From: Candidatus Nitrospinota bacterium M3_3B_026
GTDB taxonomy: Bacteria > Nitrospinota_A > UBA7883 > JBPRGF01
Assembly (NCBI GenBank): GCA_051418015.1
Contig: JBPRGF010000009.1
Coordinates: 1-64,000, forward strand
Direction: 5' to 3'
Length of the DNA stretch: 64,000 nt
Positions 30,611-33,265 of the stretch are shown one piece after another (the first letter of the stretch is position 1; the number at the start of each line of letters is the position of its first letter). The notes beneath the pieces are model-generated. The model saw nothing but the letters and a program-made list of their open reading frames with translations. It had not been told where the DNA came from and searched no databases. A program made the translations under genes and the position numbers.

Positions 30611-30910
30611 GATGAAAATCTCCCTGTTCTCAGGTTACGGCTTCTTTGCGTTGAAACGAGGGAGAATTATAAACCATCACTTCCAAGCGAAACGAGACGA
30701 AAATATCTCTTCCGGTATTTCGACTTGGCGTTAACTTGACAATTAGCAAAACATCACCACGCATTTATCACTATAGGGGCAATTTATACGCTTGATATTA
30801 CAAGTAGATTGCCTTTGCCTGCGGTAAAATTAAAAATTGCCATTTTTTGCCTTGACAACACGACAAATATGGATATTGTGTATTTTATTACTACATTGTC
30901 GGAGGCGAAA

Positions 30911-31480
30911 ATGTACAGGCCGATTATTCTTTATTGTTGGTTTGTGGCTTTGTTGGTTTCCTTTTTTTTCCCTTTGTCCACTTATGCAAGCGGGAAAGAG
31001 GTAAAGGGGAAAATGGAGGCGCACGGTTTAAATTCTTCATCAAAAGGAGTAAATGCAGGCATCTCGCCAAATCTGGATTTGCCACCAGAACAAGCAAGAA
31101 GTTTGGAATCGCTTAATAGCACAGATTGCACTTATTGGTGGATATATGGCCGTAGCTCTTGGAACTGGAGCGGGATTCCATATGTATATATCTCATATAA
31201 CAGCAATGGTAAAAGCTGGACGGAATATGGCACGAGCACAGGTGGATGTGGAATCCCTTTAACTGTCGATAGACTGTACGTTAGGGTGCAAGAATATCCT
31301 GCGAATTCTTGGCCCTACACATCCTATGACAAAACCGTGAATAACACCAACTATGTAGAAAGAGGCAATAGTGGTTGGTGCACGGGATGTACAAATATTT
31401 GTGGTGCATATGGCTGGCACAATGCCACCAAAAACGGCGTATATTGGAGCACCACCACAAGCTCAGGGTGCGCTCCATAA
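30911..31480 (+). CDS. Secreted Cys/Trp/Tyr/Asn-rich protein of unknown function (island gene 1)
   Basis: Sec signal peptide MYRPIILYCWFVALLVSFFFPLSTYASG; mature about 160 aa with 6 Cys and 9 Trp; GGAGG ribosome-binding site; GC far below genome average; no recognisable family. Confidence 0.55.
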   Translation: MYRPIILYCWFVALLVSFFFPLSTYASGKEVKGKMEAHGLNSSSKGVNAGISPNLDLPPEQARSLESLNSTDCTYWWIYGRSSWNWSGIPYVYISYNSNGKSWTEYGTSTGGCGIPLTVDRLYVRVQEYPANSWPYTSYDKTVNNTNYVERGNSGWCTGCTNICGAYGWHNATKNGVYWSTTTSSGCAP

Positions 31481-31481
31481 C

Positions 31482-32519
31482 ATGGATTGCCAAGAACAGC
31501 GTTACGAGTCATGCCCCACCATAAGGCTTCGCGCCTTCTGGTGGGGTATTCTTTTTGTTGCAGGTCTTTTTTTTGCGCAACCACTCAACGGCTTCGAAGT
31601 CCCAGAAAAACCCGGGCCTGAAGATTATGATCATAAAACCATAAACGCTTTTTTAAACAGTGGACAAGAAGGAGTGCTCTCCGCTTTGAAGGGGCACCCT
31701 GAGATGCGTAGTAATTATCTACAGCTATCATATTATCTGAAGGATAAAGAGCGGTTTAAAGCAGATTACATGATAATAAATCAGACGGCGACAAAACTAA
31801 GATTTACATTGATAGTGTTGATAGATTATATTCAGCGAGAATTTATCATAGAAGAGAAGGAGAAAGTTTTATCATATGCGGTCTCTTTACTTCCCTATGA
31901 AAAGATAATACTCCCTATAACAATCACAGACATGGGTAAAGGGGCGCATGATTTTTTGCTAATTGCCCACAGAGATTCAACATTATATAATTCTTTTGAT
32001 TACAGGAAATATCCTATTTTATTTTATAGAGCAAATATTTTTGTGGACAGCGATGAAACACCACAAGTTGTCTATAGCAAATATCCTCAATATGGGTCAA
32101 AACTACATTCCATTCGAATCACTATAAATAAATCCAGTACATTCAATAAGTTTAACGAAATAAATTACAGCCTTGATCTAATGCCAGAGGATAATCGTTT
32201 TTATCTGCATATCAACAATCCACATAAAACAGCCGTCTCGTACGCTATTGTATTATTTAGTAATCATCTACAAACGTACATTAAAGATGGAAATAACAAG
32301 CAAAGAGTTATCTATCATGCCCTTGGCCCAGAAAGACAAAGCATAATTGATTGCGAGGTAAATTTAAATAAAGATACGCATATACTTTGGGTATTATTGA
32401 TAGAAAACCCATATACTAAAATCGAGTCCAAATTAGAATCAGGTATATCCGAAATGACAACTATTCCGACATACTTGGTGATTTCCAATATTGTTCAATT
32501 TCAAGACGCGTCACGCTAA
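31482..32519 (+). CDS. N-terminally membrane-anchored or secreted protein of unknown function (island gene 2)
   Basis: Hydrophobic segment RLRAFWWGILFVAGLFFAQP near N-terminus; Ile/Asn/Lys/Tyr-rich low-GC composition; start 1 nt after the upstream stop (TAAcATG). Confidence 0.45.
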   Translation: MDCQEQRYESCPTIRLRAFWWGILFVAGLFFAQPLNGFEVPEKPGPEDYDHKTINAFLNSGQEGVLSALKGHPEMRSNYLQLSYYLKDKERFKADYMIINQTATKLRFTLIVLIDYIQREFIIEEKEKVLSYAVSLLPYEKIILPITITDMGKGAHDFLLIAHRDSTLYNSFDYRKYPILFYRANIFVDSDETPQVVYSKYPQYGSKLHSIRITINKSSTFNKFNEINYSLDLMPEDNRFYLHINNPHKTAVSYAIVLFSNHLQTYIKDGNNKQRVIYHALGPERQSIIDCEVNLNKDTHILWVLLIENPYTKIESKLESGISEMTTIPTYLVISNIVQFQDASR

Positions 32520-32520
32520 T

Positions 32521-33234
32521 ATGAAACGCGCGCTATGCATGGTTATTTATTTTGTTTTCAGCATATCGCCTGTTGATTCTCTCGCCAAAACAATAACCTA
32601 CCCTGTGAATCAGGTGGCCAGGCCTCTGACCCTGCCCGCGGGTGTCTGGGAGCTTGGCGCCGGCGCAAGCATATCCGAATGGAATAATGACGGCGGCTCT
32701 GCTGTTTATCCGGCTTTCTCCATACGCTATGGTCTCACCAGCGACATCGAACTTTATTTGCTCGGCGTCAAATATAGGCCACTGACGGAAAGCAGGCCAC
32801 TTGAGCTGGTTATGAAGGCGCGAATCGCAGGGATCGGAGAGTCGAATGTCAAGGGTAGCATCGTTTTGACGGAAGCGGCGATAGAGACGAAAACCCGAAT
32901 CACACCTTCGATATCTCTACACTGCCAAGCAGAAGAATATCACGGTTTCTATTCAAACGGCGAGGATGTTTCCGATCTCAGGTTGTCGATAGGGCAGACC
33001 GTCTCGTTTACTGACAAATTTTCGATCGGCATTATGGCGACGTACAGAAGGCTCGCAGGCTTTGACGCCGAAGACGCCGGTTTCGCGAGCGGCGCAATCA
33101 GGTATAATTTTTCTCCTCGTTTCGACGTTGTTTTTGAAGGCTCAGCGGGAGATTTCGACGACAGCGAGGACATGCGACGCGAGATGAAAAGCTCCAGGCA
33201 TGAATACGGCATCAGTCTTAACTGGAGATTCTAG
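32521..33234 (+). CDS. Outer-membrane beta-barrel protein candidate (island gene 3)
   Basis: Signal peptide MKRALCMVIYFVFSISPVDSLA; alternating amphipathic strands; C-terminal ...GISLNWRF ending in Phe (beta-barrel assembly signature); start 1 nt after the upstream stop. Confidence 0.5.
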   Translation: MKRALCMVIYFVFSISPVDSLAKTITYPVNQVARPLTLPAGVWELGAGASISEWNNDGGSAVYPAFSIRYGLTSDIELYLLGVKYRPLTESRPLELVMKARIAGIGESNVKGSIVLTEAAIETKTRITPSISLHCQAEEYHGFYSNGEDVSDLRLSIGQTVSFTDKFSIGIMATYRRLAGFDAEDAGFASGAIRYNFSPRFDVVFEGSAGDFDDSEDMRREMKSSRHEYGISLNWRF

Positions 33235-33265
33235 CTTGGAAGCGTCTTCTTTCGTCTAGCGCCCC

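What the first reader, a model, noticed from the sequence alone, without database searches (positions are those of the whole stretch)
30611..33265. AT-rich three-gene island encoding only envelope proteins of unknown family, inserted between a pfkB-family sugar kinase gene and ahbB
Base composition drops abruptly from about 65% GC to roughly 35-40% GC. Inside are three same-strand genes with 1-nt stop/start spacing (TAAcATG, TAAtATG), consistent with a translationally coupled operon. The encoded proteins are a Sec-secreted Cys/Trp-rich protein, an N-terminally anchored 346-aa protein, and a candidate outer-membrane beta-barrel ending in ...NWRF. I cannot place any of them in a known family. 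Codon usage is Ile/Asn/Lys/Tyr-rich, unlike the host genes. There is no integrase, transposase or tRNA at the borders. This looks like a recent horizontal acquisition of a compact secreted-effector/partner/outer-membrane module, which could be a bacteriocin or lectin with an immunity or export partner, or an adhesin system. It is the best candidate for an undescribed system in the window.
Basis: partly seen in the sequence, partly recalled or inferred. Interest (0 to 1): 0.8.

Follow-up and report, generated by a model that had tools for sequence, protein, structure and literature searches.

The report
Foreign three-gene envelope cassette, unknown family
A 2.6-kb AT-rich piece of foreign DNA carries three tightly linked genes for a secreted Trp/Cys-rich protein, a double Ig-like partner and a small outer-membrane protein, and the trio recurs in rare bacteria across several phyla but matches no described protein family, so it is probably an undescribed cell-envelope system.

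Summary
Window 30611-33265 is the only strongly deviant stretch in 64 kb: 38/44/36/51% GC for the spacer, g1, g2 and g3, against 62.6±3% for host ORFs. It holds three same-strand genes with 1-nt stop/start spacing. The closest available relative, a Nitrospinota MAG, has the same flanking gene order, with the ahbB stop overlapping the pfkB start. The block is therefore an insertion.

The genes are not orphans. The g1-g2-(small outer-membrane protein) order recurs in about 16 metagenomic lineages, down to 25% identity. These often sit beside LuxR/LuxI regulators, IS200/IS605 transposases or inside an integrase island.

The g1 domain (about 115 aa, two to three disulfides) is found in only 61 clusters among 1.84 billion proteins. 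It is always C-terminal. It occurs alone or behind a lectin or propeller head.

The third gene is drawn from three unrelated families.

No Pfam, NCBIfam, PDB, PHROG or PADLOC relative exists for any of the three.

Best reading (about 0.35): an outer-membrane-associated display or adhesion complex, analogous to but not homologous with WxL/WxLIP clusters. Main rival (about 0.25): a bacteriocin-immunity-release operon.

The parts
29672..30610 (-). Host flank: PfkB-family sugar kinase. It lies downstream of ahbB in the ancestral co-directional gene string.
   Evidence: Pfam PF00294 on the identical Logan contig. 67-69% identical to Nitrospinota MAG orthologues. Its upstream RBS region 'GAACAGGGAGAT' is retained and aligns with L020.
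30611..30910 (.). AT-rich (38% GC) non-coding leader of the island. It contains a sigma-70-like promoter, TTGACA-16-TATTGT at 30852-30879 (+), and an RBS GGAGG at 30901-30905. After the insertion it must also supply the promoter for pfkB on the other strand.
   Evidence: Promoter matches are consensus hits only (8 found against 5.9±2.2 expected).
30911..31480 (+). g1, a 189-aa secreted protein. Layout: Sec signal peptide (aa 1-26, ...STYA|SG, 30911-30988); low-complexity Gly/Ser/Glu linker with a short conserved motif (aa 27-70, 30989-31120); C-terminal Trp/Cys-rich domain (aa 71-189, 31121-31477; Cys 73, 113, 157, 160, 164, 187).
   Evidence: Translation. Family alignments. Exhaustive HMMER found 61 clusters, with the domain always C-terminal. 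No Pfam, NCBIfam or PDB relative.
31482..32519 (+). g2, a 345-aa exported partner. Layout: N-terminal hydrophobic segment (signal peptide or signal anchor, aa ~17-32); conserved F-x-L-P-x-K-x-G-P..FDY motif and helix (aa 38-60); two tandem beta-sandwich domains (aa ~65-190 and ~200-310).
32521..33234 (+). g3, a 237-aa outer-membrane beta-barrel candidate. It has a signal peptide (aa 1-22, ...SLA|KT), about 9 amphipathic beta segments and the C-terminal signature ...LNWRF.
   Evidence: Translation. Orthologues in L002, L003, L011 and L104. 9 amphipathic 9-mer segments against 3.6±1.6 in shuffles. Sub-threshold Pfam Phenol_MetA_deg hit at E 0.06. No structure model was made.
33235..33265 (.). 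31-nt spacer between the convergent stops of g3 and ahbB. This is the distal insertion junction.
   Evidence: Compared with L020, ahbB has lost its C-terminal tail...HWPL* against ...HWPAAETAEQGEARR*.
33266..33757 (-). Host flank: ahbB/nirD-L-type siroheme decarboxylase subunit gene. In the relative L020 its stop overlaps the pfkB start.
   Evidence: Pfam PF22451/PF17805 on the identical contig. 74% identical to L020. Junction sequences.

Best explanation
What is shown.
- A 2.63-kb operon of foreign origin was inserted, in inverted orientation, into the translationally coupled ahbB-pfkB junction of a Nitrospinota-like host.
- It encodes three envelope-targeted proteins.
- It is one instance of a rare cassette that moves between diderm bacteria: g1, g2 and a small outer-membrane protein.

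What is inferred.
- g1 is exported by Sec. Its ~115-aa C-terminal domain folds in the periplasm with two to three disulfides.
- g2, a tandem Ig-like protein exported to the same compartment, binds and stabilises that domain in roughly 1:1 amounts. The tight translational coupling supports this.
- The pair is held at, or presented from, the outer membrane by the co-encoded small beta-barrel.
- The g1 C-terminal domain would be the constant docking or binding module. What precedes it is the variable 'head': only a linker with a short linear motif in the window, and a B-lectin or beta-propeller in other members.
- The complex would therefore be an outer-membrane-associated ligand-binding or adhesion device. 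It probably binds glycan or cell wall, and is probably switched on by LuxR-type or quorum-sensing regulators.
- In function it parallels the Gram-positive WxL/WxLIP (Csc) cell-surface clusters, but it is not homologous to them.
For: Insertion:
- GC and GC3 lie 2-5 sd below the host.
- The syntenic relative L020 has an empty, overlapping ahbB/pfkB junction.
- Orthologous cassettes sit in 37-42% GC contigs.

Conserved unit:
- g2 lies immediately downstream of g1 in every locus with enough sequence, about 14 lineages, with 1-15-nt gaps or overlaps.
- A small OMP-like third gene is present in 12 of 13 lineages.

Export and disulfides:
- Signal peptides are present on all three proteins.
- Cys164 and Cys187 are lost together in four family members. 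Cys73 and Cys113 are invariant.

Docking-module logic:
- The domain is C-terminal in all 61 clusters.
- Small forms are a linker plus the domain. Large forms carry about 47-aa propeller-like repeats, a Lactonase-type propeller or a B_lectin domain.
- This is the same small/large pattern described for WxL proteins with their tandem-Ig partner (PMC10599100).

g2 fold:
- Two beta-sandwiches.
- No enzyme-like fold or invariant catalytic set was seen.

Generic role for the barrel:
- Three families without profile similarity fill the third slot.
- Two of them are of 8-10-strand size, too small to conduct a folded disulfide-bonded domain.

Regulation:
- LuxI/LuxR sits next to L005, and GerE regulators sit next to L002 and L003.
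Against: - No physical interaction, localisation or ligand has been shown.
- The g1 fold is unknown; the AF2 model had pLDDT 42.
- The g2 similarity to WxLIP is weak and generic (TM 0.25-0.35). RbmA, CEP192, transglutaminase and pilus-chaperone sandwiches score almost the same.
- Neither g1 nor g2 hits WxL, DUF916 or DUF3324.
- Each cassette has one g1, whereas WxL clusters have two WxL proteins.
- Most g1 proteins have no 'head', so a pure docking role leaves them without an obvious function.
- One lineage (L006-L008) lacks the third gene.
- Linkage to mobile elements and quorum sensing, and a C-terminal domain followed by a dedicated partner gene, fit a toxin-immunity pair equally well.
Confidence: 0.35

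Rival explanations
1. Bacteriocin-immunity-release operon. The g1 C-terminal domain is a killing module that acts on the envelope or cell surface of competitors. The variable N-terminus (disordered linker with a linear motif, lectin or propeller) does the targeting. g2 is the periplasmic immunity protein that protects the producer while g1 passes through. The small outer-membrane protein, plus the 73-75-aa lipoprotein in some loci, helps release.
For: - The order effector, then tightly coupled partner, then outer-membrane or lipoprotein gene mirrors colicin-type activity-immunity-lysis operons (established knowledge; Cascales et al. 2007, as cited in PMC6465234).
- One member fuses a B_lectin domain to the g1 domain. 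B-lectin domains target lectin-like bacteriocins and albusin B (PMC6465234).
- Cassettes ride on an integrase island, next to IS elements and next to LuxI/LuxR.
- L103 keeps g2 and barrels without g1, which resembles an orphan immunity gene.
- Distribution is rare and patchy.
Against: - No known toxin domain was found, and the g1 family has no invariant catalytic residues: His170, Lys174 and Asp120 all vary.
- A domain locked by two to three disulfides is poorly suited to import through porins or TonB-dependent receptors. If it acts from outside, as LlpA does, no immunity protein is expected (PMC6465234).
- g2 is large (about 300 aa, two domains) for an immunity protein.
- g1 is the most conserved of the three proteins (about 55% identity against about 38% for g2 and g3), unlike arms-race toxins.
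- g3 has no lipobox, and there is no lysis gene in the window.
- PADLOC and PHROGs give nothing.
Confidence: 0.25
2. Outer-membrane uptake or sensing system. The small barrel is a conduit or receptor for a hydrophobic or scarce substrate. g1 and g2 are its extracellular or periplasmic binding proteins, in the manner of a hemophore or lanmodulin.
For: - g3 has a sub-threshold match to Phenol_MetA_deg, a family of small transport barrels.
- The g1 domain is aromatic-rich and has a near-invariant His.
- The L013 cassette lies beside CHRD-domain and CxxCH proteins.
Against: - The Pfam hit is not significant and is seen in only 1 of 15 barrels.
- Three unrelated barrels are interchangeable, which argues against a substrate-specific channel.
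- No TonB box, ABC transporter or regulator of nutrient limitation is linked.
- There is no conserved metal-binding motif.
Confidence: 0.1
3. Chaperone-assisted fibre or matrix system. g2 is a PapD-like periplasmic chaperone. g1 is a subunit that polymerises through its N-terminal motif by donor-strand exchange, or acts as a biofilm scaffold protein like RbmA. The barrel is the exit or anchor.
For: - The g1 linker carries a conserved short motif that could act as a donor strand.
Against: - There is no usher-sized (about 800 aa) barrel, and no PapD Pfam hits.
- Large g1 forms lack the motif.
- 8-12-strand barrels cannot pass folded subunits.
- g1 has no amyloid-type repeats.
Confidence: 0.07
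4. Decaying or non-functional foreign DNA: three hypothetical ORFs with no current role.
For: - There are no mobility genes.
- The host contig is seen in a single sample.
- The composition is not ameliorated.
Against: - All three ORFs are intact and keep start/stop coupling, an RBS and a promoter-like site.
- All family-invariant residues are kept.
- The cassette is conserved as a unit across phyla.
Confidence: 0.03

Closest known systems
WxL / WxLIP (Csc) cell-surface protein clusters of Lactobacillales and Bacillales (PMC10599100; PDB 9i1y, 9i25)
   Same: - Both have a Trp-rich domain that is always C-terminal.
- That domain occurs either alone behind a signal peptide ('small') or behind N-terminal binding domains ('large').
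- An adjacent conserved gene encodes a ~340-aa exported protein made of two tandem Ig-like sandwiches with one hydrophobic anchor segment.
   Different: - There is no sequence relationship: no WxL, DUF916 or DUF3324 hits.
- The g1 domain is about 115 aa with disulfides, against 160-190 aa with two W-x-L motifs.
- The g2 hydrophobic segment is N-terminal, not C-terminal.
- There is one g1 per cassette, not two WxL genes.
- The hosts are diderms, and the cassette adds an outer-membrane barrel instead of relying on peptidoglycan binding.
Colicin-type bacteriocin operons (activity-immunity-lysis) and periplasmic immunity proteins such as Cmi/Pim
   Same: - Three co-transcribed genes in the order effector, tightly coupled partner, envelope-release or outer-membrane component.
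- The effector is modular, with variable N-terminal parts and a constant C-terminal domain.
- A mobile, patchy distribution.
   Different: - g1 has a Sec signal peptide and disulfides.
- No known cytotoxic domain is present.
- g2 is far larger than known immunity proteins.
- The third gene is a beta-barrel candidate, not a lysis lipoprotein.
- No toxicity data exist.
Lectin-like bacteriocins LlpA/LlpB (B-lectin/MMBL proteins; PMC6465234)
   Same: One family member (P0045/P0087, locus L108) carries a B_lectin domain N-terminal to the g1 domain (Pfam E 9.5e-8). It is a secreted, carbohydrate-targeting architecture.
   Different: The window's g1 has no B-lectin domain. LlpA/B have no partner or immunity gene and no g1-like domain; their C-terminal extension is about 32 aa.
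Chaperone-usher pili and the Vibrio RbmA matrix protein
   Different: There is no usher, no PapD-family sequence match and no evidence of polymerisation.
Surface or periplasmic proteins partnered with small outer-membrane barrels (RcsF-OmpA/C/F; LecB-OprF)
   Same: The idea that a soluble envelope protein with a disordered linker is positioned by an outer-membrane barrel. This comparison is drawn from memory and was not tested here.
   Different: Those partners are housekeeping porins encoded elsewhere. Here a dedicated barrel is co-encoded, and g1 has no lipid anchor.

Membership tests
WxL/WxLIP (Csc) cluster | WxL domain (Pfam PF13731): 160-190 aa with two Trp-x-Leu motifs | tested here: not met
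   No Pfam hit at E<=1 for g1, and none at E<=0.01 in 51 family members. The PDB profile search does not retrieve the WxL chain of 9i25. The domain is about 115 aa with only one W-W-[LIV] motif.
WxL/WxLIP (Csc) cluster | Partner made of DUF916 + DUF3324 Ig-like domains followed by a C-terminal TM helix | tested here: not met
WxL/WxLIP (Csc) cluster | Small (domain only) and large (N-terminal binding domains + C-terminal domain) versions of the Trp-rich protein | tested here: met
   Of the 61 clusters, most are 170-230 aa. Several are 513-605 aa with propeller repeats, and one has a B_lectin domain. The domain is always C-terminal. The two forms were not seen together in one cassette.
WxL/WxLIP (Csc) cluster | Peptidoglycan binding of the Trp-rich domain | not testable with these tools
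   This needs a binding assay.
Colicin-like bacteriocin operon | Recognisable cytotoxic domain (nuclease, pore-former, lipid II phosphatase, muramidase) | tested here: not met
   No Pfam, NCBIfam or PDB match. There is no invariant catalytic residue set.
Colicin-like bacteriocin operon | Cognate immunity gene immediately downstream that neutralises the toxin | tested here: inconclusive
   The position and tight coupling of g2 fit. Neutralisation cannot be tested, and g2 matches no immunity family.
Colicin-like bacteriocin operon | Lysis/release lipoprotein gene | tested here: not met
   g3 has no lipobox, and no further ORF fits in the 31 nt before ahbB. A 73-75-aa lipoprotein follows g3 only in L003 and L011.
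Lectin-like bacteriocin (LlpA/LlpB) | One or two B-lectin (PF01453) domains | tested here: not met
   The window's g1 has none. Only 1 of 51 family members has one.
Chaperone-usher pathway | PapD-family chaperone plus an ~800-aa usher | tested here: not met
   No PapD or usher Pfam hits. The third gene is 160-250 aa.
Type V secretion (autotransporter / two-partner) | Autotransporter beta-domain, or an Omp85/POTRA TpsB transporter | tested here: not met
   No such Pfam hits in g1-g3 or in 15 third-gene proteins.
Small transport barrels (Pfam Phenol_MetA_deg, PF13557) or OMP_b-brl (PF13505) | Score above the Pfam gathering threshold | tested here: not met
   g3 scores 13.8 bits against a cut-off of 22. 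The 215-aa type scores 17.7 against 28.7. Barrel character rests on the signal peptide, 9 amphipathic segments (z about 3) and the C-terminal aromatic residue.
Classical genomic island | Deviant composition and absence from the syntenic site of a relative | tested here: met
   (composition). (empty junction in L020).
Classical genomic island | Integrase or transposase, tRNA target, flanking direct repeats | tested here: not met
   There is only a gapped, non-significant 14-nt similarity at the two ends. Homologous cassettes elsewhere do sit with a Y1 transposase, an IS element or an integrase.

The most novel reading that the evidence does not exclude
The cassette is a previously undescribed way for diderm bacteria to mount proteins on the outer membrane. 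A portable, disulfide-locked C-terminal docking domain (the g1 domain) would be captured by a dedicated tandem-Ig partner (g2) and a small, interchangeable outer-membrane barrel. Any N-terminal head (a linear motif, lectin or propeller) could then be displayed. It would be a self-contained, horizontally mobile counterpart of WxL/WxLIP, sortase or T9SS-CTD anchoring.
Probability: 0.25. Interest if true: 0.75.

Novelty: categorically new. Interest (0 to 1): 0.6.

Why it matters
All three proteins, and the cassette as a unit, lie outside every curated family and solved structure that was searched. Yet the cassette is conserved from Nitrospinota-like and Nitrospirota organisms to Gammaproteobacteria, and it travels on mobile DNA.

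Depending on which reading is right, it would define one of two things. It could be a new outer-membrane display or adhesion device with a reusable docking domain, which would help annotation and could serve as a surface-display tool. Or it could be a new class of Sec-exported bacteriocin with an unusual immunity protein.

It also gives names and boundaries to a new C-terminal domain family of about 60 clusters and its obligate partner. At present these are all annotated as 'hypothetical protein'.

The caveat is that the function is inferred. 'New' is established only at the level of protein families and gene-cluster architecture.

Tried and rejected
- The AF2 model of g1 from a 9-sequence alignment failed (pLDDT 41.8). 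It was not used for fold search, and the structure jobs were then exhausted, so g3 was never modelled.
- The afdb50 fold library was unavailable.
- Foldseek against PDB and against the viral BFVD library gave only generic tandem sandwiches.
- PDB sequence-profile searches for g1 (narrow and 38-sequence profiles), g2 and g3 gave only chance hits at E>0.5.
- PHROGs and PADLOC gave nothing.
- The g2 profile against 185,579 species-representative genomes gave no confirmed hit. The host genome itself is not in that collection either.
- tblastn of g1 and g2 against 72,556 plasmids gave no match.
- An exact-sequence look-up of g2 failed because the public gene call starts at an internal TTG, giving 277 aa.
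- A search for flanking repeats or att-like sites found only short two-copy chance matches.
- An alignment of g1 upstream regions from six loci showed no shared operator or lux-box-like motif.
- There are no paralogues of g1-g3 elsewhere in the window.
- Resemblances considered from memory and dropped for lack of any tool support: RNase T1-type catalytic motifs, CBM2, C-type lectin 'WIGL' and barwin/DPBB.
- A literature lead on WxLIP in a metalloprotein paper proved irrelevant.
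Full report
**1. Observation**

Base composition drops sharply inside the stated coordinates. 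300-nt windows fall from 0.59-0.65 GC to 0.31-0.50 between about 30650 and 32750. At 1-kb resolution this is the only stretch of the 64-kb window below 0.51 GC.

Measured against 48 long host ORFs (GC 0.626±0.030, GC3 0.772±0.091), the island values are:

| Segment | GC | GC3 |
|---|---|---|
| g1 | 0.44 | 0.44 |
| g2 | 0.36 | 0.34 |
| g3 | 0.51 | 0.58 |
| 300-nt leader | 0.38 | n/a |

The drop is real, but g3 is intermediate rather than 35-40% GC.

The three genes are:
- g1, 30911-31480 (189 aa, GGAGG 5 nt upstream).
- g2, 31482-32519 (345 aa).
- g3, 32521-33234 (237 aa, ...LNWRF).

The junctions read TAAcATG and TAAtATG. The only tRNA in the window is at 16076. An identical 21-kb public contig (Logan SRR28149505) has no integrase or transposase within about 10 kb on either side. 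No meaningful flanking repeats were found.

**2. It is an insertion**

The host is not represented among 185,579 species genomes. The best PfkB relatives are groundwater Nitrospinota MAGs at 67-69% identity.

One of these, L020 (JACQZB010000020.1), keeps the whole neighbourhood degT-ahbA-ahbB-pfkB-TM protein-rsmD-band7 in the same order and orientation. There the ahbB stop codon overlaps the pfkB start (…CGATGAGC…).

In the window, ahbB ends early (…HWPL*), and pfkB keeps its RBS region (GAACAGGGAGAT). The 2.63 kb between them is the island, on the opposite strand.

The insertion therefore broke a translationally coupled pair. The AT-rich leader must now supply promoters in both directions. 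A TTGACA-16-TATTGT match lies 32 nt upstream of g1.

L020 is only a distant relative, so the insertion cannot be dated.

**3. The three genes form a conserved cassette**

The word-seeded protein search found eight g1 homologues at 45-63% identity, and nothing for g2 except itself.

Reading the contigs of the g1 hits showed a g2-like gene immediately downstream in every case, and usually a third small envelope gene. A profile of those g2 sequences then recovered more. The metagenome scan added L103-L107, and a last look-up gave L108.

About 16 lineages are now known. g1 to g2 spacing is 1-15 nt or overlapping, apart from 58 nt in L108. g2 identity to the window falls from 40% to 25%.

Context of the related cassettes:
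- LuxI+LuxR next to L005.
- GerE-type regulators next to L002 and L003.
- IS200/IS605 Y1 transposases next to L006-8 and L104.
- An IS element replacing g1 in L103.
- A P4-type integrase/AlpA/helicase island around L108.

Most close relatives lie in 37-42% GC DNA, for example a Nitrospirae MAG. That matches the composition of g1 and g2 in the window.

**4. g1**

*Layout.* Signal peptide (…STYA|SG), a ~45-aa Gly/Ser/Glu-rich linker, then a ~115-aa C-terminal domain.

*Family size and architecture.* An exhaustive HMMER search of 1.84 billion representatives with the domain profile found only 61 clusters, and the domain is C-terminal in all of them.
- Most are 170-230 aa with the same layout as g1.
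- A few are 513-605 aa, with eight to ten ~47-aa propeller-like repeats or a Lactonase-type propeller.
- One has an N-terminal B_lectin domain.

*Conservation.*
- Cys73 and Cys113 are invariant.
- Cys164 and Cys187 are nearly invariant and are lost together in four members, which indicates a disulfide.
- The Cys157-x-x-Cys160 pair is specific to the window's subfamily.
- W76, W77, G80, G107, D120, H170, A172 and G176 are ≥90% conserved. D120, H170 and K174 are each replaced in some members, so a fixed catalytic site is unlikely.

*Linker motif.* Small forms share a short linear motif in the linker: …E-x-x-G…G-[IVM]-x-P-x-[DE], with G39 ≥90% conserved. Large forms lack it.

*Database matches.* No Pfam, NCBIfam, PHROG, PADLOC or PDB sequence relative exists. 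Named members are all 'hypothetical protein', for example HDN1F_32480 of gammaproteobacterium HdN1 and a Chromatiales MAG.

*Structure.* The AF2 model was unusable (pLDDT 42). It suggests only an all-beta domain.

**5. g2**

The AF2 model is usable (pLDDT 73.7, pTM 0.74). It shows an N-terminal hydrophobic helix, a short conserved helix, and two beta-sandwich domains.

Foldseek agrees, with low TM-scores (0.21-0.35). The highest target-normalised value is for WxLIP bound to a long WxL protein (9i25_C).

No enzyme fold appears. Invariant polar residues cluster in G-x-H156-D157-F, R183-A-N185 and N309-P310. This is more suggestive of an interface than of catalysis.

Several orthologues have AxA|-type cleavage sites (GNA|AEF, ANA|QDG, GYA|FEM). 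g2 may therefore be a soluble periplasmic protein rather than anchored. The window's own site (FFA|QP) is atypical, so this stays open.

**6. The third gene**

g3 has a signal peptide, nine amphipathic beta segments (shuffles give 3.6±1.6) and a C-terminal …NWRF. Its only database signal is a sub-threshold Phenol_MetA_deg match.

Orthologues occur in L002, L003, L011 and L104. In other cassettes the same slot holds one of two other proteins:
- A 215-aa protein ending …GVIF, with a sub-threshold OMP_b-brl hit.
- A 160-aa Gly-rich protein ending …GYQF.

The three families show no profile-profile similarity (hhalign probability ≤1.1%).

A third gene is present in 12 of 13 lineages with enough sequence; L006-8 lack it. 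Two loci add a 73-75-aa lipoprotein.

Interchangeable barrels, two of them of 8-10-strand size, argue for a generic anchoring or partner role. They argue against a dedicated channel for a folded, disulfide-bonded domain.

**7. Mechanism**

*Shown:*
- Foreign origin and the insertion site.
- Export signals on all three proteins.
- Covariation of Cys164 with Cys187, which indicates a disulfide.
- The obligate g1-g2 gene pairing, and the frequent third small outer-membrane-protein-like gene.
- The modular small and large forms of g1.
- The tandem-Ig fold predicted for g2.

*Inferred:* g1's domain and g2 form a complex in the periplasm or at the outer membrane. The barrel tethers or presents this complex, giving an outer-membrane-associated binding or adhesion device whose constant part is the g1 domain.

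The closest described logic is the Gram-positive WxL cluster. That has small WxL proteins (domain only), large WxL proteins (N-terminal host-binding domains plus a C-terminal WxL domain), and a ~340-aa tandem-Ig WxLIP that binds and stabilises WxL on the wall (PMC10599100).

Every sequence-level membership test failed, however, and the fold match is weak. This is an analogy, not membership. I put it at about 0.35.

The main rival, at about 0.25, is a bacteriocin-immunity-release operon.
- It fits the gene order, the mobility, the quorum-sensing linkage, the B-lectin fusion (compare lectin-like bacteriocins and albusin B, PMC6465234) and the g1-less L103.
- It fits less well with the disulfide-locked domain, the lack of invariant catalytic residues, the size of g2, and g1 being the slowest-evolving of the three proteins.

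Uptake or sensing, fibre or matrix, and non-functional readings are less likely. They are covered under the rival explanations.

**8. Novelty and verdict**

Its interpretation is supported: a horizontally acquired, compact module of secreted protein, partner and outer-membrane protein from undescribed families.

None of the three families is in Pfam-A, NCBIfam, PHROGs, PADLOC or the PDB. I found no paper describing them. At the level of families and cluster architecture the cassette is new. Its functional kind may prove analogous to known surface-display or bacteriocin systems.

Interest is moderate to high (0.6): a rare, mobile, cross-phylum cassette with a new C-terminal domain, but with no functional data yet.

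Noticed in passing
window 262-1125 (+): A 287-aa LuxR/GerE-type regulator. It is 28% identical (E 2e-14) to the 303-aa GerE regulator that lies divergently next to the g1-g2-g3 cassette in the Nitrospirae MAG locus L002. It is a possible distant regulator of the island, 30 kb away.
   Followed up: partly
window 32521-33234 compared with 30911-32519: The island is compositionally heterogeneous. g3 is 51% GC (GC3 0.58), while g1 and g2 are 44% and 36%. g3 orthologues in low-GC loci are 37-39%. The cause could be mosaic origin or uneven amelioration; it is unexplained.
   Followed up: partly
window 33266-33275 and 30611-30640; L020 2300-2352: In the relative L020 the ahbB stop overlaps the pfkB start (ATGA), which indicates translational coupling. 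In the window the insertion removed the last ~11 codons of ahbB and uncoupled pfkB, which now depends on the island's AT-rich leader for transcription.
   Followed up: yes
window 33242-33255 and 30639-30652 (- strand): An imperfect, gapped similarity sits at the two island ends: ACGAAAGAAGACGC against ACGCAAAGAAGCCG. It is too short and gapped to call a target-site duplication.
   Followed up: partly
window 31016-31078 (g1 aa 36-56); family alignment A7: A conserved short linear motif sits in the otherwise low-complexity linker of small g1 proteins: E-x-x-G ... G-[IVM]-x-P-x-[DE]. Large forms lack it. L108 encodes a separate 106-aa secreted protein that carries only this motif.
   Followed up: partly
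family members P0042, P0045, P0049, P0058, P0062, P0065: Many gammaproteobacterial g1-family proteins extend past the last Cys with a conserved tail, G-[GA]-[ND]-P-G-T-[WYI], at the very C-terminus. The window's g1 lacks it.
   Followed up: no
L013 3387-7673 (soil contig Ga0307469_10000008): Upstream of that cassette lie two CHRD-domain lipoproteins, two CxxCH-motif proteins (one ends ...WHAFF, like an outer-membrane protein) and a paralogue of the 160-aa '...GYQF' protein.
   Followed up: no
L004 1830-2552: The g3 orthologue is split into two ORFs (59 + 156 aa) in one of two near-identical Hainich groundwater contigs. This is either a frameshift or an assembly error.
   Followed up: no
window 31371-32519 / L001 7924-8757: The public gene call for g2 starts at an internal TTG (277 aa). 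That cuts off the N-terminal hydrophobic segment and leaves a false 200-nt gap after g1. The ATG at 31482 restores the 1-nt coupling and matches the orthologues.
   Followed up: yes
window 51000-54650: This is the second-lowest GC in the window: 0.55 at 51-52 kb, and a 225-aa ORF at 53973-54650 (-) with GC 0.54. It is still within about 3 sd of the host mean.
   Followed up: no
window ~20500-27500 (from L001 annotation): The host neighbourhood holds a biotin-type cluster: a BioC-like methyltransferase, a BioH-like hydrolase and a 694-aa fusion protein hitting PF13500 (AAA_26), PF01656 (CbiA) and PF00202 (Aminotran_3). RuvX is next to it, and a FIST/HisKA/response-regulator set lies on the other side of the island.
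   Followed up: no
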